Source: Candidatus Latescibacterota bacterium
GTDB taxonomy: Bacteria; Latescibacterota; UBA2968; UBA8231
DNA: 64,000 nt
Assembly: GCA_965208105.1 (NCBI GenBank)
Contig: OZ242318.1
Span: forward strand, 1,952,001-2,016,000
Direction: 5' to 3'
This document shows positions 4,480 through 11,011 of the stretch, piece after piece. How positions within the stretch are numbered: the first letter of the stretch is position 1; each line of letters begins with the position of its first letter. The position numbers and the translations under genes were made by a program. Below the pieces are notes generated by a model that was not told where the DNA came from, searched no databases, and saw only the letters and a list, made by a program, of their open reading frames with translations.

Positions 4480-5298
4480 TCACGAGCTCGCTCTCAGTTT
4501 GGCCAGCTCCGCGGGCATGTGGCCCTGGTGCGCCAGCACCTGCTCCAGATGGGTGCGGCGCCGAGGTCCCGCCGTGGCCAGCATTATTTCGTCGTACATA
4601 CTGTCGATGCCGTAGCGGACGTGGGCGCTGATGCACCACTTGAGGATGCCGATGTGCTCCTCGGGCACCCTTTCGCAGCAGTTGATGGTGAACATGCGGC
4701 GGCGCCGGCCGCCGCCGAAGGAGGCGTGCTTGATGCTGTGCATGAAGACCACCACGTCGCCCGGTTCGGTTTCCACCGCCAGCGACGGTACGTCCTGCGC
4801 TTCTATCCCCCACGCATCGGTCGACTCCTTGATCACCTCCTGGAGCCGCGACGAAAAGGTATCTTCGAGCCGGTGGCTTCCCGGAATCAGGCGCAGACAG
4901 CCGGAATCCCGCTTCACCGGGTCGAGGTAGAAGGCGACCTTGACGAACCTCACCTCGCTGATCCAGCGGTCCGAATGCCACGGCGTATCGCCGACGTAGA
5001 AGTTGCCGTCCGAGCCGACGTAGTTGAAACCCTCGCCGACGAGCCCTTCGACCAGGCCTTCGATCCGGGGATCGTCCAGCAGGGCGCAAAGGCGCTCGTG
5101 CTGGTCGATGAAGGGAACGATCTGCGAGTTCCTGCTGCCGTCGTGCCGCTGGCCGTTGTTGGCCGGCCGCCGCGCCCAGACCTCCTCGAAGGCATCGATG
5201 ATCTCGCCCACGCTGTCTTGCAGCAGGCCGGGCAGGACGAGAAAACCGAAGCTCTCGAAGAATGCCTTCTGCTGCGGAGAAAGCTGAAAGCGGTCCAT
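4480..5298 (-). CDS. Phytanoyl-CoA dioxygenase (PhyH) family Fe(II)/2OG enzyme
   Basis: FFESFGFLV start, WHSD, GCLRLIPGSH, distal His. Confidence 0.85.
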   Translation of the reverse strand: MDRFQLSPQQKAFFESFGFLVLPGLLQDSVGEIIDAFEEVWARRPANNGQRHDGSRNSQIVPFIDQHERLCALLDDPRIEGLVEGLVGEGFNYVGSDGNFYVGDTPWHSDRWISEVRFVKVAFYLDPVKRDSGCLRLIPGSHRLEDTFSSRLQEVIKESTDAWGIEAQDVPSLAVETEPGDVVVFMHSIKHASFGGGRRRRMFTINCCERVPEEHIGILKWCISAHVRYGIDSMYDEIMLATAGPRRRTHLEQVLAHQGHMPAELAKLRASS

Positions 5299-5453: not shown

Positions 5454-6314
5454 TCATTCCCACGAGTCCACACCGGCAAGTTTGCGGCCCAGGGGCGTCA
5501 GCTCGGCGGTGGGCGACTCGTGGTGCTCACGCCCATCTCTATAGCGCCCCCCGAGAGCGTACCTTCCCGTCAGGCGCCGGCGCCAGAAGTCCACCCGGAT
5601 CCGGCGTGCTTCCTTGCCGTCGTCGCGCGCCGGCTCCATGGCGATGTATTGAGCCACGCGGGGCCGCACACCCCGGTTGATGCCGGCCGAGTGCGGCAGG
5701 GCCGTGCGCCAGATGATCAGGTCGCCGGCTTCGGCTCCGATGCGCCGGGGCGGATCGTCCCCCTCGTAGGTCCTGCCGCCAGGAGGCAGACGTTCGAGCC
5801 AGTCCTCCAGTTTCCTGTGGAATCCCGGGACGCAGACAAAGGCCCCCTGTTTCGCGGGGGTGTCGTTCAGGTAAAGGACGCCCTGCACTCCGAAGGCCAC
5901 CGGACGGTCTTCCAGGTCTGCGTCCCAGTGCAGTCCCTCTTCCTGCTGGCCTGGGTCGCGGCTCGGGGGATTTATGCTGGCGCGGTCGTGGCTGACCCAC
6001 AGCTTTTCGCTGCCGAATATCTGGCTGAAGGCCCGGTGCACGCGCGGGGCGGTGCGGTTGTTCCACAGGGTCTGGTGGTGGTAGATCTCGATCATGATGG
6101 TGCCCTTGCGGGCCGGGACCCCGGGGCCATCGGGGCCGGCCGGCCCCGGCGGCGGCTCCGCGTACCAGGTGCCCGGATCATCCGGGTCCTTTTGCGCAAA
6201 CGCCCAGATGGCGCGGGCGGTTTCCTCGGCCTGTTCTCGTGAGACGGCCTGGCGGGCGATGACGTAGCCGTTTTCGTCGAAGAATTCCAGATCTCTGTCG
6301 CTGAGCACGGACAT
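5454..6314 (-). CDS. PhyH family dioxygenase
   Basis: Start reset to MSVLSDRD (GGAGG upstream); FFDENGYV, LHWD, VPGFH, LPH. Confidence 0.85.
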   Translation of the reverse strand: MSVLSDRDLEFFDENGYVIARQAVSREQAEETARAIWAFAQKDPDDPGTWYAEPPPGPAGPDGPGVPARKGTIMIEIYHHQTLWNNRTAPRVHRAFSQIFGSEKLWVSHDRASINPPSRDPGQQEEGLHWDADLEDRPVAFGVQGVLYLNDTPAKQGAFVCVPGFHRKLEDWLERLPPGGRTYEGDDPPRRIGAEAGDLIIWRTALPHSAGINRGVRPRVAQYIAMEPARDDGKEARRIRVDFWRRRLTGRYALGGRYRDGREHHESPTAELTPLGRKLAGVDSWE

Positions 6315-6642
6315 GGAAACTACCCTCCGGTTATGCGTTGGCACCGGCCTGCCCTGGAGCCCCTTTTTCCCCTTGGCAAAATCAACCTGGGCCCTGGTAG
6401 AACCCCGCCAGGTTTGACACAGGAGGAGACGAGTATTCAATCCCTTACTTCTGTCCTTTACTTTAGATAGTGGCGCCCCCCGGTGCAAGGCGAACCCGAC
6501 CTCCCTGGCGAAGTGGATGGCGCGCATCCTGCCAAACGTTTTAACCCGCCCTCAACGCCAGTGGATCAGGTCCGTTGCCCGGGTTTGCCGGGATGGGCGG
6601 GAAGACTTTTTTTATGGACAGACCCTTGCAGGCCAGCGGAGC

Positions 6643-7311
6643 ATGATGAAGGAACTCACTCTTCTCCTCCTGACGTTCTACATGGGCGCCGCACCTGTCT
6701 TTGCGCAGGAAGCGCAGGCCGATTCCTCGCGGAGCGAACGGCCGGTGTTTTCGATGACCCCCAGCTGAGTGGGCTGACCAGGCGAAGGCGCACCGCTCCG
6801 GGGGAGCGGCATCCATACGAAGATTTCCTTCTCGGGGCGTTTCGTGGATACGTCCAGGGACCGCCCGCGATGGCGGTTCACCGCCAGCTACCGCCTGCAT
6901 CGGCGCCTGCAGGTCGGGGCCGAGCTGAATCCAAAGGCGAAGGAGGCGGGACCTCTTGTTACCCTGTTCCTGTTCACCGAGACCCGGACCCGTCCCGCGC
7001 TCTTTCTGGGCACGAGCTCGGACCGGATCGGCTCGCCGGCGGGGGAGCAGTCCTACTTCGCGACGACAAGCAAATTCATCCCCCGGCTGCGCGCTGCCTT
7101 CTACGGCAGCCTGAATTACTCCGAGTGGGACGGCAAGCTCAATCTTCCCCTCGGCGCCGAAATCGAACTGGGCAGAGGCTTCTCGCTGCGGCCCATGTAC
7201 GACGGCGACCGCGGGCATGTGATGCTGAATTATTTCGCGGCGCAATACGGTGTCAGCCTGATGTACGTTTGGTTCGAGACCCCGGGTATTTCGCTATCAC
7301 TCGGATTCTAG
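6643..7311 (+). CDS. Putative exported beta-barrel-like selenoprotein with U-V-G-U motif (in-frame TGA at 6766-6768 and 6775-6777)
   Basis: Signal-peptide ORF (MMKELTLLLL..VFA-QE) is in frame with ORF 6844-7311; the only interruptions are two TGA spaced as CxxC; hairpin follows; amphipathic beta strands and C-terminal Phe. Confidence 0.7.
6793..6809 (+). other. Putative bacterial SECIS hairpin
   Basis: CCGCTC-CGGGG-GAGCGG; loop begins 21 nt after second TGA and 30 nt after first. Confidence 0.6.
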
Positions 7312-7333
7312 TGTCCCGTCGCATGGAGGACCG

Positions 7334-8017
7334 ATGCGTTTTCGCAAGATTCTATTTCTGATTGTTCTGGCAAGTTCAGCTTCCCTTGTAGCTGAAATCT
7401 CGATTCCCGAAAAGGCCCTCTGCAGTGTCTGTGCATTGAAGGGCGGCGAGACGGAGCTGGAAAAGGTCAAGGCCCACTCCGAACATGAAGACACGCCCTA
7501 CTATTTCTGCTCCGGAGACTGCAAGGAAGAATTCGACTCTGACCCCCTGGCCTATATCCCACCTGAGTTTCCACGGCCCGCCCCGGCCTTCACCGTCGAA
7601 ACTCCCCAGGGCGGGGACAAGGCGCTGGAGGACCTGAAGGGCAAGGTCGCGATCGTGGACTTCTGGGCTACGTGGTGCAAACCTTGTCTCGAGGGCATGC
7701 CCCGGCTGCAAAAGCTCTACAACGCCTATTCCGGCCAGGGCTTCGAGGTTTGGGGCGTGGCCATAGACGAAGGTCAAAACCGGGTCGAGAAGATTGAGCG
7801 AATGGTGGACAAGTTGGATATCTCCTATCCCATCTTCCTCGAAGCGAAACGGATGCCTGCCTGGTACCTTTTCAAGGTCAAGGCGATTCCCGCCATGTAT
7901 CTCCTGGACGGAGAAGGCCGGATCGCGGCGCAGTGGACGGGAAAGATAGATTTCGAGGCTGCAGAGAAGGAAGTCCAGAGATTGCTGGAAGAAAGGGCCC
8001 AGGGCGATGAGCCGTGA
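7334..8017 (+). CDS. Exported YHS-domain + TlpA-like thioredoxin (redoxin) protein
   Basis: Signal peptide; CSVC...YYFCSGDCKEEFDSDP (YHS/TRASH); DFWATWCKPC; cis-Pro AIP. Confidence 0.85.
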   Translation: MRFRKILFLIVLASSASLVAEISIPEKALCSVCALKGGETELEKVKAHSEHEDTPYYFCSGDCKEEFDSDPLAYIPPEFPRPAPAFTVETPQGGDKALEDLKGKVAIVDFWATWCKPCLEGMPRLQKLYNAYSGQGFEVWGVAIDEGQNRVEKIERMVDKLDISYPIFLEAKRMPAWYLFKVKAIPAMYLLDGEGRIAAQWTGKIDFEAAEKEVQRLLEERAQGDEP

Positions 8018-8146
8018 GCAGGTCCGCGGCAAAGAATATGGAAAGCCGAGGTTGAGGCGCCCTGAGCGAATCCCTTGCGGTGAGTACGCTCGTCCGTGTT
8101 GCTCCCGCTCGATCCACACCATCGCAGTTGAGAACAGGAGCCTGAT

Positions 8147-11011
8147 ATGAGACGGTTCTGGATGCTGTCCCCTGTTGTTCCCTTGCTGCTGTGCGCCTGC
8201 GCCGGCACCCCGAAGGCACCCGCGTCGCGGCCGGAAGTGGAGAAGACGACCGCGGAGCCGGAGGACCCGAAGCTGGCCATCGACCCCCTGGTGACCACCG
8301 GCCGGCTCGACAACGGCCTGCGCTACGTCATCCGCAAAAACCAGAAGCCCGAGAACAGGGTCGAGCTGCGGCTGGCGGTCGACGCGGGATCGGTGCTGGA
8401 GGACGAAGACCAGCAGGGCCTGGCGCACTTCGCCGAGCACATGGCCTTCAACGGCACCAAAAACTTCGCCAAGCAGGAGCTGGTGGACTACCTGGAGCTG
8501 ATCGGCATGCGCTTCGGGCCGGACCTCAATGCCTACACCAGCTTCGACGAGACCGTCTACATGCTCACCGTGCCCACCGACAGCGCCGAGGTGGTGGAAA
8601 CGGCCTTCCAGATTCTGGAGGACTGGGCCCACCAGATCAGCTTCGAAGCGGAGGAGATCGACAAGGAGCGGGGCGTGGTCATCGAAGAGTGGCGCCTGGG
8701 CCGCGGCGCCCAGCAGCGCATGTTCGACCGGCAACTTCCCATCATCCTCAAGGATTCGCGCTACGCCGCGCGCCTGCCCATCGGTCAAAAGGCCGTGCTC
8801 GATACCTTCGGGCACGAGACCCTGCGCCGCTTCTATCGCACCTGGTACCGGCCCGACCTCATGGGTTTCACGGCCGTCGGCGATATCGAGCCGGCGGCTG
8901 TGGAGGCGCTGGTGCGGAAGTACTTCGGGCGCATCCCGGCGGCGGAAAACCCGCGCCAACGCACGGTTTTCCAGGTGCCCGACCACGAGGAGACCCTCTT
9001 CGCCATCGCCTCCGACCCGGAGGCCACCCACAACAGCGTCAGCATCTACTACAAGATGGACGTGCGGCCCCAGGGGACCGTGAGCACCTACCGGCGCTCG
9101 CTCATCGAGGGCCTGTATCACCGCATGTTCAACCAGCGCCTGCACGAGCTGACCAAGCTTCCCGAGCCGCCTTTCCTGGGAGCCTATTCGGGGCAGGGGC
9201 GCTGGCTGCGCTCCAAGGAGTTCTTCGTCCTCGGCGCCGGGGTGCAGAACAACGGGTTGGACGCCGGACTGGAGGCCCTGCTGCTCGAGGCGGCGAGAGT
9301 GCGGCAGCACGGCTTCACCGCCTCCGAGCTGGAACGCGAGAAGAAGGAAATGCTGCGCGGCGTGGAGCAGGCCTACCGCGAGCGCGACAAGCAGCAGTCG
9401 AGCGCCTTTGCCGCCGAGTACGTGCGCCATCTGCTGACCGGCGAGGCCATCCCCGGCATCGCCGGGGAGTACGAGCTCTACCAGGAGCTGGTCCCCGGCA
9501 TTGCGCTGGAGGAGGTCAATGCGCTGGCCAGCGAGTGGACCAGCGAAGAGAACCGGGTGATCGCCGTGGATGCTCCCGAGCAGGAGGGCATTGACGTGCC
9601 CGACGAGCAGGACCTGCTGTCGATCTTCGCCCGGGTGGCGCGGCGGGAGATCGCGCCCTACGCCGACGAGGTGTCCGACGACCCGCTCGTGGCCCAGGTG
9701 CCGGCTGCGGCTGAAATCGTCGAGCGCAGTGAAATTCCCGAGATCGGGGTGACCTGGTGGACCCTTTCCAACGGCGTCAGGGTGTGCCTGAAGCCGACGG
9801 ACTTCAAGAACGACGAGATCCTCTTCAATGCCTACAGTCCCGGGGGGCACTCCCTGGTCCCCGACGCCGATTACGTCGCCGCCTCGACGGCGACCGCGGT
9901 GGTGGGAGAGGGCGGCGTCGGGCCGTTCGACAAGATCGAGCTGGAGAAGAAACTTGCCGGCAAGGTGGTGGGGGTATCACCGTGGATCGGCAGCCTGCGG
10001 GAGGGGATTTCCGGCTCGGCCTCGCCCGAGGACGTGCGCACCATGTTCGAGCTGATCTACGCCTTCTTCACCGCTCCGCGCCAGGACAGCACCGCCTTCC
10101 AGGCCTACCGGACGCGCATGCGAGGCTCCATCCAGAATCGCAGCGCGCGCCCGGAGACCGCCTTCGGGGACACCATTGCGGTCACCATGTCCCAGTACCA
10201 CCACCGCGGGCGCCCCTGGTCGCTGGAGCTGCTCGACGAGATGGACCTGGCCACCTCCATGGCCGTGTACCGGGACCGCTTTGCCGACGCCGGCGACTTC
10301 TCTTTCTTCTTCGTCGGCAACTTCACCCTCGAGGGCATGGAGCCGCTGGTGCGCAGCTATCTGGGCGGTCTGCCGTCCGCGGGACGGGAGGAGACCTGGC
10401 GCGACCTGGGCATCGATGCCCCGGAGGGCGTGGTCGACAAGGCGGTCCACCGCGGCATCGAACCCAAGAGCCGGTCGCGGATGATCTTCACCGGCCCCTT
10501 CGAGTACGACGGCTGGAAGAACAACCTCGAACTCGGGGCCATGACCTCCGTGCTGCAGATCAAGCTGCGCGAGGTTCTGCGCGAGGACCTGGGCGGCACC
10601 TATGGAGTCTGGGTCGGCGGCACGGGCTCGCGCTACCCGGACGGGGAGTACCGCATCTCCATCACCTTCGGCAGCGATCCCGACCGCGTCGAGGAGCTGA
10701 CGCAGGTGATATTCGCGCAGATCGACAGTCTGAAGACCGCCGGCACCACCGGCCTCTACATCGACAAGGTCAAGGAAATGCGCAAGCGCCGGCGCGAGAT
10801 CGACCTCAAGGAGAACGGTTTCTGGGTCCGGGCCCTGGAGTCGGCCGACTTCAACGGCGTCGATCCGCGGCTGCTGGTTCGCTACCCGGAGCTGGTCGAC
10901 TCGCTGACCGCGGAGATGGTGCAGCAGGCGGCGCGGAAGTACTTCAACATGGACCGCTACGTGCGGGTGGTGCTGTATCCGGAGGACCCGGGCGAGCCGG
11001 GAGAGGAGTAG
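8147..11011 (+). CDS. M16 zinc peptidase (PqqL-like), probable lipoprotein
   Basis: GLAHFAEHMAFNGT, NAYTSFDETVY, LREDLGGTY; N-terminal lipobox-like LCAC. Confidence 0.92.
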   Translation: MRRFWMLSPVVPLLLCACAGTPKAPASRPEVEKTTAEPEDPKLAIDPLVTTGRLDNGLRYVIRKNQKPENRVELRLAVDAGSVLEDEDQQGLAHFAEHMAFNGTKNFAKQELVDYLELIGMRFGPDLNAYTSFDETVYMLTVPTDSAEVVETAFQILEDWAHQISFEAEEIDKERGVVIEEWRLGRGAQQRMFDRQLPIILKDSRYAARLPIGQKAVLDTFGHETLRRFYRTWYRPDLMGFTAVGDIEPAAVEALVRKYFGRIPAAENPRQRTVFQVPDHEETLFAIASDPEATHNSVSIYYKMDVRPQGTVSTYRRSLIEGLYHRMFNQRLHELTKLPEPPFLGAYSGQGRWLRSKEFFVLGAGVQNNGLDAGLEALLLEAARVRQHGFTASELEREKKEMLRGVEQAYRERDKQQSSAFAAEYVRHLLTGEAIPGIAGEYELYQELVPGIALEEVNALASEWTSEENRVIAVDAPEQEGIDVPDEQDLLSIFARVARREIAPYADEVSDDPLVAQVPAAAEIVERSEIPEIGVTWWTLSNGVRVCLKPTDFKNDEILFNAYSPGGHSLVPDADYVAASTATAVVGEGGVGPFDKIELEKKLAGKVVGVSPWIGSLREGISGSASPEDVRTMFELIYAFFTAPRQDSTAFQAYRTRMRGSIQNRSARPETAFGDTIAVTMSQYHHRGRPWSLELLDEMDLATSMAVYRDRFADAGDFSFFFVGNFTLEGMEPLVRSYLGGLPSAGREETWRDLGIDAPEGVVDKAVHRGIEPKSRSRMIFTGPFEYDGWKNNLELGAMTSVLQIKLREVLREDLGGTYGVWVGGTGSRYPDGEYRISITFGSDPDRVEELTQVIFAQIDSLKTAGTTGLYIDKVKEMRKRRREIDLKENGFWVRALESADFNGVDPRLLVRYPELVDSLTAEMVQQAARKYFNMDRYVRVVLYPEDPGEPGEE

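What the first reader, a model, noticed from the sequence alone, without database searches (positions are those of the whole stretch)
6643..7311. Hidden exported beta-barrel-like protein with a double selenocysteine motif (U-V-G-U)
Seen: a signal-peptide ORF ends at TGA 6766-6768, then GTG GGC TGA (6775-6777), and the frame stays open into ORF 6844-7311. Read-through gives 222 aa: ...MTPS-U42-V-G-U45-PGEGAPLRGS... The two TGAs have exact CxxC spacing and a SECIS-like hairpin follows. The downstream part has alternating beta strands and a terminal Phe (ISLSLGF) but no signal peptide of its own, which the upstream ORF would supply. Known: UxxU is rare and best known from the thioredoxin-fold SelL. 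Inference: this may be a non-thioredoxin outer-membrane or exported selenoprotein family with a diselenide or metal-binding site, missed by gene callers.
Basis: partly seen in the sequence, partly recalled or inferred. Interest (0 to 1): 0.9.

Follow-up and report, generated by a model that had tools for sequence, protein, structure and literature searches.

The report
Outer-membrane barrel protein with two selenocysteines
The two in-frame TGA codons are real and almost certainly encode a selenocysteine pair (U-x-x-U) in an exported outer-membrane barrel protein that gene callers cut short; the family is widespread and I found no published description of it.

Summary
ATG 6643 to TAG 7311 is one 222-codon gene with TGA at 6766-68 and 6775-77. 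Both TGAs stand at the same columns in all 30 phylum matches that cover the site and in 79 of 80 loci from other species genomes. The motif is PT-U-x-G/A-U-PGEGAPLRGSG. A 7-bp hairpin (6793-6809, loop GGG) lies 22 and 31 nt after the TGAs. It meets the published bacterial SECIS criteria and covaries at synonymous sites. The genome has selA, selB, selD and tRNA-Sec, and it uses TGA as an ordinary stop in neighbouring genes. Distant homologues carry Cys-x-x-Cys (TGC/TGT) at exactly these columns. The 'Trp' forms in protein databases are code-4 gene calls: shown for P0063, inferred for P0003 and P0192. The protein has a signal peptide, a roughly 35-residue tail carrying UxxU, and a barrel modelled with about 12 strands (pLDDT 87). 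A YHS-plus-TlpA-like thioredoxin gene follows it in 50 of 80 loci. In the Cys forms the YHS domains are fused to the barrel and a thioredoxin gene follows. It matches no Pfam or NCBIfam model and no family in a 2026 catalogue of 119 selenoprotein families. Function is inferred: a redox-active or soft-metal-binding diselenide site kept reduced by the partner.

The parts
6643..7311 (+). Whole selenoprotein gene: 222 codons plus TAG stop, with two in-frame TGA
   Evidence: The frame is conserved on both sides of the TGAs: codon-position entropy is 0.46/0.41/0.99 upstream and 0.46/0.33/1.32 downstream.
6643..6705 (+). Signal peptide (MMKELTLLLLTFYMGAAPVFA); cleavage after VFA is inferred
   Evidence: Sequence. 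A helix at residues 2-22 in the model. An equivalent hydrophobic N-terminus is present in the homologues.
6766..6768 (+). UGA 1 = Sec42
   Evidence: It aligns with an invariant Cys of the CxxC forms.
6775..6777 (+). UGA 2 = Sec45
   Evidence: It aligns with the second Cys of the CxxC forms.
6793..6809 (+). SECIS-like hairpin: 7-bp stem 6793-6799/6803-6809, apical loop GGG 6800-6802
   Evidence: Consensus fold. Pair counts are: 98.9% of cells paired in 78 distinct sequences, GC/AU/GU at one pair and CG/UA/UG at another. Energy -12.6 kcal/mol.
6823..7308 (+). Outer-membrane beta-barrel domain (residues 61-222), ending ...SLSLGF
   Evidence: AF2 models (13 strand elements, block-mean pLDDT 86-95 over the barrel in the second model). 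Foldseek hits to 12-stranded barrels.
7334..8017 (+). Partner gene: exported YHS/TRASH-like Cys domain plus TlpA/ResA-like thioredoxin domain (FWATWCKPC)
   Evidence: Pfam and NCBIfam. It lies downstream on the same strand in 50 of 80 loci.

Best explanation
This is one gene for an exported selenoprotein. A Sec-type signal peptide is followed by a roughly 35-residue tail that carries two selenocysteines three residues apart (PS-U-VG-U-PGEGAPLRGSG). After the tail comes a small outer-membrane beta-barrel, modelled with about 12 strands, that ends in Phe. Both UGA codons are most likely read as Sec by SelB with Sec-tRNA, directed by one hairpin inside the coding sequence. The hairpin's loop lies 31 nt after UGA1 and 22 nt after UGA2, so both fall within the 16-37 nt range of bacterial SECIS elements. 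Shown here: the conserved TGAs, the covarying hairpin, the Sec machinery in the genome, Cys-x-x-Cys homologues, the predicted fold, and the conserved partner gene and domain fusions. Inferred: the tail faces the periplasm, as the ends of even-stranded outer-membrane barrels do. The U-x-x-U pair cycles between diselenide and diselenolate, or binds a soft metal such as Cu(I). The downstream YHS-TlpA-like protein keeps it reduced or hands it metal. I put about 0.87 on 'true double-Sec selenoprotein' and about 0.4-0.45 on the metal-handling role specifically.
For: TGA at both columns in 30 of 30 phylum matches that cover the site and in 79 of 80 loci from genome contigs. Amino-acid conservation runs through the TGAs in one frame, with third-position variability on both sides. 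In 8 of 28 homologues the same gene ends in TGA, and three neighbouring window genes end in TGA, so TGA is not a general sense codon here. Hairpin: the only two pairs that vary at synonymous sites covary. In 28 sequences they are GC11/AU10/GU5/other2 and CG24/UA3/other1. In 78 distinct sequences they are GC53/AU11/GU11/other3 and CG49/UA26/UG2/other1. No shuffle out of 500 reaches the observed covariation score, and slid controls reach only 30-70% pairing. The hairpin meets the four published bSECIS criteria as I read them in PMC13188914, section 5. The genome's own selD, which has an in-frame TGA, carries a similar 7-bp GC stem with loop GGAA about 20 nt after its TGA. selA scores 557 bits, selB 351, selD 369 and tRNA-Sec 69.6, all over their cut-offs. 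selB is present in all 34 phylum genomes that have the gene, against 128 of 168 overall, and in 5 of 5 tested genomes that I reached through loci labelled with other phyla. Cys forms (PT-C-AG-C-AGEA, codons TGC/TGT) align column for column with U42 and U45. Fold: second model pLDDT 87.3, pTM 0.82. The best PDB matches are FapF, KdgM (TMt 0.62), NanC, the COG4313 channel and designed 10- and 12-stranded barrels. Functional link: the YHS+TlpA-like gene lies downstream in 50 of 80 loci. In 4 of 7 Cys-form loci, YHS domains are fused to the CxxC-barrel and a TlpA-like gene follows. In 2 of 7 a separate YHS protein is adjacent.
Against: There is no direct evidence of selenium in the protein and no RNA or protein data; no RNA run holds the stretch. 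On the single window sequence the hairpin is not the minimum-energy fold of a 64-nt piece, and that piece folds no better than shuffles (z = 0.8). The support for the hairpin is therefore comparative only. All seven stem pairs lie in strongly conserved codons, so only two pairs can vary, and related sequences inflate shuffle tests. No Cys or other sense codon was seen at either position among the 79 close Sec-form loci. The Cys forms are only 23-35% identical and lack the PGEGAPL motif. One of the two search patterns used to fetch loci was PGEGAPLRG itself, which favours motif-bearing relatives. 25 of the 30 loci without the partner gene are labelled Poribacteria, and four Poribacteria genomes gave only generic thioredoxin-domain matches elsewhere. 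The selB co-occurrence is weak evidence because 76% of the phylum has selB.
Confidence: 0.87

Rival explanations
1. The TGAs are read by something other than the Sec machinery: near-cognate read-through as Trp or Cys, or an alternative code with TGA = Trp or Gly.
For: Three database proteins show W at both positions (P0003, P0063, P0192). TGG and TGA differ by one transition.
Against: DNA of a near-identical relative of P0063 (L096) has TGA at both places, so that W is a code-4 gene call on a short contig. TGA ends the same gene in 8 of 28 homologues and ends three neighbouring genes. No locus has TGG at either position. Sense-codon homologues have Cys, not Trp. A covarying hairpin at SECIS distance and a full Sec machinery are present.
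Confidence: 0.05
2. These are two separate units: a short upstream ORF ending at 6768 (a leader peptide or a remnant) and a barrel gene starting at GTG 6844, with the hairpin acting as a regulatory RNA structure.
For: This is how public gene callers annotate it: 118 of the 120 listed homologues are 130-171 aa. A conserved hairpin could in principle be regulatory.
Against: The barrel ORF would lack a signal peptide although it folds as an outer-membrane barrel. The stretch 6778-6843 is conserved as protein in the same frame: positions 1 and 2 are nearly invariant and position 3 varies. The distance from upstream of TGA1 to the stop is 597 nt in nearly all 78 loci. In the Cys forms the whole is one uninterrupted ORF.
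Confidence: 0.04
3. It is a pseudogene or a sequencing or assembly error.
For: Two stops close together in a gene are typical of decay. One relative (G144, L016/L053) does carry an extra TAA and a damaged hairpin, and another (G142, L035) carries a deletion.
Against: The same two TGAs, and no other stops, are present in 79 of 80 loci of other species. Contigs from four studies agree with the window at both TGAs. There is a purifying-selection signature on both sides.
Confidence: 0.01

Closest known systems
[quoted passage not shown] All as listed in Table 1 of PMC13188914 (read).
   Same: Two Sec residues with CxxC spacing in a bacterial protein, so two UGAs 9 nt apart must be decoded. A redox or metal-binding role is presumed.
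   Different: No sequence relationship: the protein matches no Pfam or NCBIfam model at E <= 1. Those families are listed with thioredoxin-type, metal-binding or small regulatory domains. This one is an outer-membrane barrel with the motif on an N-terminal tail.
Outer-membrane selenoproteins in the same catalogue: the GSU2204 / MtrB-PioB family barrel (NF041027) and the TonB-dependent receptor of FCYXU motif type (NF049945).
   Same: A beta-barrel protein of the outer membrane that contains Sec.
   Different: Those are listed with one Sec each and other motifs. There is no NCBIfam match here. This barrel is small (about 160 residues) and has two Sec residues outside the barrel.
Small 12-stranded outer-membrane barrels: KdgM/NanC porins, FapF, the COG4313 channel.
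   Same: Predicted fold. Foldseek E-values run from 1e-4 to 4e-3 with TM up to 0.62. FapF and COG4313 have N-terminal segments that plug the barrel (recalled, not tested).
   Different: Sequence identity is 8-12%. There is no Pfam membership and no PDB sequence match even at E <= 10. None has a CxxC or UxxU tail.
TlpA with ScoI/CoxB in rhizobia: a periplasmic thioredoxin-like reductase that reduces copper-binding cysteine pairs.
   Same: The partner gene scores as TlpA/ResA-like (NF047696 66 bits, NF002854 90 bits; both are below their equivalog/subfamily cut-offs). It sits next to a protein with a CxxC/UxxU pair.
   Different: The partner carries an extra YHS/TRASH-like Cys domain. The presumed substrate is an outer-membrane barrel tail with selenols. 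No copper oxidase context was seen.
   Same: The UxxU motif.
   Different: SelL has a thioredoxin fold and a 3'-UTR SECIS (recalled). Here the protein is a beta-barrel with a hairpin inside the coding sequence.

Membership tests
Bacterial selenoprotein gene (SelB/SECIS-decoded UGA) | An in-frame UGA conserved among orthologues, with protein conservation on both sides | tested here: met
   30 of 30 phylum matches. 79 of 80 loci. Codon-position entropies.
Bacterial selenoprotein gene (SelB/SECIS-decoded UGA) | [quoted passage not shown] | tested here: met
   7 bp stem, loop GGG or GUG, 22 nt from UGA2 and 31 nt from UGA1, -12.6 kcal/mol. Covariation.
Bacterial selenoprotein gene (SelB/SECIS-decoded UGA) | selA, selB, selD and tRNA-Sec in the genome | tested here: met
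   all score over the curated cut-offs.
Bacterial selenoprotein gene (SelB/SECIS-decoded UGA) | Homologues with Cys at the Sec position | tested here: met
   P0155, P0162, P0182, P0166, P0198, P0150, P0152 and P0223. Alignment A4. TGC/TGT codons in 6 loci.
Bacterial selenoprotein gene (SelB/SECIS-decoded UGA) | Selenium demonstrated in the protein | not testable with these tools
   Needs 75Se labelling or mass spectrometry.
Catalogued selenoprotein families with NCBIfam or Pfam models (incl. NF041115, TIGR02605, PF00578, NF041027, NF049945) | A match to the family's profile | tested here: not met
   0 families at E <= 1 in Pfam-A and in NCBIfam release 20.0.
KdgM/NanC porin family | A sequence-profile match | tested here: not met
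   No Pfam hit. No PDB sequence hit at E <= 10.
KdgM/NanC porin family | 12-stranded outer-membrane barrel fold | tested here: inconclusive
   Foldseek TMt 0.62 to KdgM, and 13 strand elements in the model. I could not count strands on coordinates.
SelL / thioredoxin-fold UxxU proteins | Thioredoxin fold around the UxxU | tested here: not met
   The model is all-beta barrel with UxxU in an N-terminal tail. No thioredoxin Pfam hit.

The most novel reading that the evidence does not exclude
This is an undescribed selenoprotein family spread over many bacterial phyla. It is part of a three-module envelope system: a YHS/TRASH metal-binding domain, a UxxU or CxxC tail on a small outer-membrane barrel, and a TlpA-like reductase. 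The modules are shuffled by fusion between lineages. The diselenolate tail captures or gates a soft metal (Cu(I), Hg, Ag, Cd) or a chalcogen at the outer membrane. A single SECIS hairpin programmes two Sec insertions three codons apart.
Probability: 0.4. Interest if true: 0.8.

Novelty: new variant of a known kind. Interest (0 to 1): 0.72.

Why it matters
Most known selenoproteins are cytoplasmic or periplasmic thioredoxin-fold enzymes with one Sec. This would add a family whose Sec pair sits on an outer-membrane barrel. The family has hundreds of members: 579 proteins, 185 loci in species genomes, and 210 representative clusters. Public databases hold these members almost only as N-terminally truncated 'hypothetical proteins' of 151-166 aa, or as mistranslated Trp forms. 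The family gives a natural test case for how one bacterial SECIS serves two UGAs 9 nt apart. It also gives a Sec/Cys pair of subfamilies with shuffled YHS and thioredoxin modules, which points to a testable envelope redox or metal function. Practically, it shows a systematic annotation error that can be corrected.

Tried and rejected
Single-sequence folding of 6757-6820 did not give the hairpin as the MFE and was no better than shuffles (z = 0.8), so I rely on comparative evidence. Rfam at E <= 10 gave only one chance-level hit on the other strand. A profile search of PDB sequences gave nothing at E <= 10. The ESM Atlas search with Cys form P0162 gave only unnamed or 'putative outer membrane beta-barrel' clusters. 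No RNA holder was listed for window 6400-8200, so nothing can be said on expression. Earlier findings of this scan: none, by sequence or by words. I searched four Poribacteria genomes for the YHS-TlpA partner and found only thioredoxin-domain matches of 33-41% identity with no YHS part. Comparing downstream folding energies of Cys and Sec forms (-17.6 against -21.0 kcal/mol mean) is not decisive in GC-rich sequence; the Cys forms simply lack the conserved hairpin sequence. A possible second small helix around UGA1 (A1 columns 38-42 with 51-56) came out of the consensus fold, but no pair changes on both sides, so I do not claim it. Complex prediction was not run. Its text limits proteins to code 11, and the read-through protein is not code 11. 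The claimed contact is also an enzyme-substrate one, which the tool advises against sending. Model coordinates are not exposed, so the position of the tail relative to the barrel could not be examined. Supplementary files of the selenoprotein catalogues and of the GOS paper were not seen. They may list unnamed candidate families, which bears on the novelty claim.

Full report
**Observation.** The window has ATG at 6643, TGA at 6766-6768, GTG GGC, TGA at 6775-6777, and then an open frame to TAG 7309-7311. Reading TGA as U gives 222 residues: MMKELTLLLLTFYMGAAPVFAQEAQADSSRSERPVFSMTPS-U-VG-U-PGEGAPLRGSG..., ending ...ISLSLGF. The ORF that table 11 lists for the main part starts at GTG 6844 (155 aa) and has no signal peptide. 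The coordinates and description in the finding are correct.

**Conservation of the two TGAs.** I searched 168 species genomes of the window's phylum with the read-through protein, and 34 had a match. Every match that covers both positions (30 of 30 rows) is reported with '2 TGA' inside. Two of these carry an extra stop: G144 has a TAA and G142 a TAG. The five other rows stop short of the second TGA: four are fragments that miss the site altogether (the contig-end fragment of G096, one piece of G135, G063, G117), and a second G135 piece ends at query residue 44 and holds only the first TGA.

Translating the loci shows an almost invariant motif...F-S-M-T-P-T-*-V/T/M/S-G-*-P-G-E-G-A-P-L-R-G-S-G-I..., preceded in the same frame by a signal-peptide-like N-terminus.

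A scan of one genome per species across all prokaryotes found 185 relatives, and the best 80 were fetched. Of these, 79 have TGA at both positions, and the 80th (L069) is cut by its contig end before the site. One caveat applies: one of the two peptide patterns used for that scan was PGEGAPLRG itself, which favours motif-bearing relatives.

The record titles carry labels such as Latescibacterota, Poribacteria, Calditrichia, Eisenbacteria, Thermoanaerobaculia/Acidobacteriota and Krumholzibacteriia. These are submitters' MAG labels, and some conflict with the grouping used by the genome search. For example, L054, labelled 'Gemmatimonadota', has the same sequence as L023 from the window's own phylum.

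Contigs of four sequencing runs from four studies cover 6600-7400 and show no difference at either TGA. The only nearby variant is in the Val codon between them.

**The region is translated in this frame.** Among 28 phylum sequences, the mean column entropy at codon positions 1/2/3 is 0.46/0.41/0.99 in the 15 codons before TGA1. It is 0.02/0.02/0.78 from TGA2 to the end of the hairpin, and 0.46/0.33/1.32 further downstream. The length from 18 codons before TGA1 to the stop is 597 nt in nearly all 78 loci.

**TGA is not a general sense codon.** In 8 of 28 homologues the same gene terminates with TGA. In the window, the next gene (7334-8017) and both upstream PhyH genes end with TGA.

**The 'Trp' homologues are artefacts.** In the large protein collection, 579 proteins match. 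Of the 120 listed, 118 are 130-171 aa, meaning they were called from a start after the TGAs. Two are full length. Both full-length ones, P0003 and P0063, read T-W-S-G/A-W-PGEGAPL. The DNA of a near-identical relative of P0063 (L096) has TGA at both W positions, so that W comes from a gene call under a TGA=Trp code on a short contig. I did not see the DNA of P0003 or of P0192, which has the same pattern.

**True Cys homologues.** A profile search of 1.84 billion representative proteins gave 210 hits at E <= 0.001. Among the 21 full-length or longer ones I fetched, P0155, P0162, P0182, P0166, P0198, P0223, P0150 and P0152 have PT-C-AG-C-AGEA, and P0209 has PS-C-AL-C. In a joint alignment these Cys residues fall in the columns of U42 and U45. 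Loci of this subfamily fetched from metagenomes use TGC or TGT at both positions in all 6 loci where the motif was found. P0133 reads C-V-G-W-PGEG, which may be a mixed Cys/Sec form; its DNA was not seen. Other distant relatives (P0147, P0188, P0227, P0238, P0265, P0257) lack the motif.

**SECIS.** The consensus fold of the alignment gives a 7-bp helix with a 3-nt loop. In the window this is 6793-6799 paired with 6803-6809, with loop GGG at 6800-6802. Five of the seven pairs are fixed by first and second codon positions. The two pairs that involve synonymous third positions both covary:

- Pro CCN with Ser AGY: GC 11, AU 10, GU 5, unpaired 2 in 28 sequences; GC 53, AU 11, GU 11, unpaired 3 in 78 distinct sequences.
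- Leu CTY with Gly GGR: CG 24, UA 3, unpaired 1 in 28 sequences; CG 49, UA 26, UG 2, unpaired 1 in 78 distinct sequences.

Overall 98.9% of cells pair. No shuffle out of 500 reaches the observed covariation score, and sliding the partner by 1-3 columns drops pairing to 30-70%. Where Ser becomes Gly (L105, L109, L120), the U-A pair becomes U-G rather than breaking.

The hairpin alone has -12.6 kcal/mol. The criteria for bacterial SECIS elements given in PMC13188914 (section 5, read in full) are a 3-9 nt loop, a 4-16 bp stem, G in the first two loop positions, 16-37 nt from UGA to the loop, and MFE <= -7.5 kcal/mol. All are met for both UGAs (22 and 31 nt).

The genome's own selD has an in-frame TGA followed by a 7-bp GC-rich stem with loop GGAA about 20 nt downstream. 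So a recognised selenoprotein gene of the same organism uses a similar element.

On the single sequence the evidence is weak. A 64-nt piece folds differently and no better than shuffles.

**Sec machinery.** selB (351 bits), selA (557 bits), selD (369 bits) and tRNA-Sec (69.6 bits) are all present and over their cut-offs. All 34 phylum genomes with the gene have selB, against 128 of 168 in the phylum. This is consistent but weak, since kin are not independent. Five of 5 genomes that I reached through loci labelled with other phyla also have selB over the cut-off.

**The protein.** With a 25-row alignment the model had a helix at 2-22 (the signal peptide), a disordered stretch at 23-57 and a beta domain at 61-221 (pLDDT 70.3). 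With 83 rows and the mature sequence, the model has pLDDT 87.3 and pTM 0.82, with 13 strand elements whose 10-residue block means are 86-95. The tail that carries UxxU rises to about 75-78, with two short bridges flanking the loop that holds PS-U-VG-U-PGEGAP. U was modelled as C.

Foldseek against the PDB gives FapF, a designed 10-strand barrel and a designed 12-strand barrel, the COG4313 channel, KdgM (TMt 0.62), NanC, OEP21 and a Vibrio oligogalacturonate porin. This is the class of small outer-membrane barrels. The terminal Phe fits the usual C-terminal signature of such proteins (established knowledge).

There is no Pfam or NCBIfam match at E <= 1 and no PDB sequence match.

**Partner and context.** The next gene (7334-8017) encodes an exported protein. 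It has a Cys-rich YHS-like segment (PF04945, 22.6 bits, below the cut-off) and a thioredoxin-fold domain (AhpC-TSA 68 bits, Redoxin 50 bits; ResA/TlpA models 90 and 66 bits, below their strict cut-offs) with the motif FWATWCKPC.

A tblastn of this protein against the loci finds it downstream on the same strand in 26 of 29 phylum loci and in 50 of 80 loci from the wider scan. The wider flanks (M16 peptidase, PhyH) are conserved only within the genus. Of the 30 loci without it, 25 are labelled Poribacteria and one ends 122 nt after the gene. In Poribacteria the gene stands alone, and four such genomes have only generic thioredoxin-domain matches elsewhere.

In the Cys subfamily the same three modules are arranged differently. 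P0150 has YHS domains (54.8 bits, three stretches) fused in front of PTCAGCAGEA and the barrel; P0152 likewise (29.7 bits, just under the cut-off of 30.3). In 4 of 7 metagenome loci (L129, L131, L132, L133) a 413-494 aa barrel ORF is followed directly by a 159-161 aa thioredoxin-fold gene with FWATWCxxC. The barrel ORF carries YHS-type Cys motifs in the three read in full (L129, L131, L132). In L130 and L128 a separate YHS/TRASH protein is adjacent.

Small exported Cys-rich ORFs lie just upstream in 4 of 7 of these loci. One of them is a 157-aa ORF with 41 Cys in CKCC/CTCKDCKC repeats (L130). This shuffling of modules argues that the YHS domain, the CxxC/UxxU tail and the thioredoxin-like protein work together. 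The Cys-rich neighbours and the YHS/TRASH domains point towards soft-metal handling. That last step is inference.

**Mechanism proposed.** Shown: two conserved UGAs, one covarying hairpin at SECIS distance from both, the Sec machinery, Cys homologues, the export signal, the barrel fold, and the linked modules. Inferred:

- SelB with Sec-tRNA binds the hairpin and decodes UGA1. The ribosome then moves three codons with the hairpin still intact (its stem starts 15 nt after UGA2), and a second SelB complex decodes UGA2.
- The protein is exported and inserted in the outer membrane with the tail in the periplasm.
- The two selenols form a diselenide, or bind a soft metal.
- The YHS-TlpA-like protein reduces the pair or exchanges metal with it.

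**Comparison with what is known.** A 2026 review lists 119 prokaryotic selenoprotein families (PMC13188914; sections 5 and 7 parts 1-2 read). It gives UxxU only for Prx-like oxidoreductases, a metal-binding/putative mercuric reductase family (NF041115) and FmdB-family proteins. It lists two outer-membrane selenoproteins (NF041027, NF049945), each with one Sec. Nearly all entries are tied to Pfam, NCBIfam or similar models, and this protein matches none of the Pfam or NCBIfam models.

The 2022 review (passages) and the GOS survey (passages) mention no such family. Full-text searches for UXXU with selenoprotein and bacteria (5 papers), for outer-membrane/beta-barrel selenoproteins (39 papers, 20 listed) and for selenoproteins in these phyla turned up no description. 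I saw listings only for the other papers. Supplements were closed, so unnamed candidates in supplementary data cannot be excluded.

**Verdict.** It is very probably a genuine double-Sec selenoprotein of a family not in current catalogues, and public annotation systematically truncates or mistranslates it. Decoding by the Sec machinery is strongly supported but not proven without protein data. The redox or metal function is a reasoned hypothesis.

Noticed in passing
G000:C1:3653826-3654752 (-), locus L039 (outside the window): The genome's selD has one in-frame TGA (motif ...VACGG-U-ASKLSPGEL), so it is itself a selenoprotein. A 7-bp GC stem with loop GGAA follows about 20 nt downstream.
   Followed up: partly
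L130:685-1158 (+), metagenome locus of the Cys form: An exported 157-aa ORF with 41 Cys in CKCC/CTCKDCKC repeats (metallothionein-like), just upstream of the YHS protein and the CxxC barrel. Less extreme Cys-rich exported ORFs lie upstream in L127, L131 and L133, and there is a second one in L130 (261-617). None has a Pfam match.
   Followed up: partly
L016/L053 (G144) and L035 (G142): Two relatives look decayed. G144 has a TAA inside the signal peptide and two substitutions that break the hairpin. G142 has a deletion that joins the barrel gene to the C-terminal part of the TlpA-like gene.
   Followed up: partly
Proteins P0002-P0121; P0003, P0063, P0192: Public protein collections hold this family almost only as 130-171 aa N-terminally truncated 'hypothetical proteins'. 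A few are full-length forms with Trp at the Sec positions, from gene calls under a TGA=Trp code on short contigs.
   Followed up: yes
P0133 (209 aa, representative library): It reads PA-C-VG-W-PGEG. This may be a mixed Cys-x-x-Sec form (TGC/TGT followed by TGA called as Trp).
   Followed up: no
window 6774-6812: When contigs of sponge and marine metagenome runs are laid on the window, this 39-nt stretch (TGA2 plus the hairpin) recruits extra contigs whose flanks belong to other organisms. This shows nucleotide-level conservation of the element across species.
   Followed up: partly
window 4480-5298 (-) and 5454-6527 (-); 8147-11011 (+): There are two PhyH-family dioxygenase genes upstream and an M16-family peptidase (954 aa) downstream. 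These flanks are conserved only within the genus, so they are not part of the cassette.
   Followed up: partly
Alignment A1 columns 38-42 with 51-56 (window about 6758-6762 with 6771-6776): The consensus fold proposes a small helix that would place UGA1 in its loop and overlap UGA2. No pair changes on both sides, so it is unsupported.
   Followed up: partly
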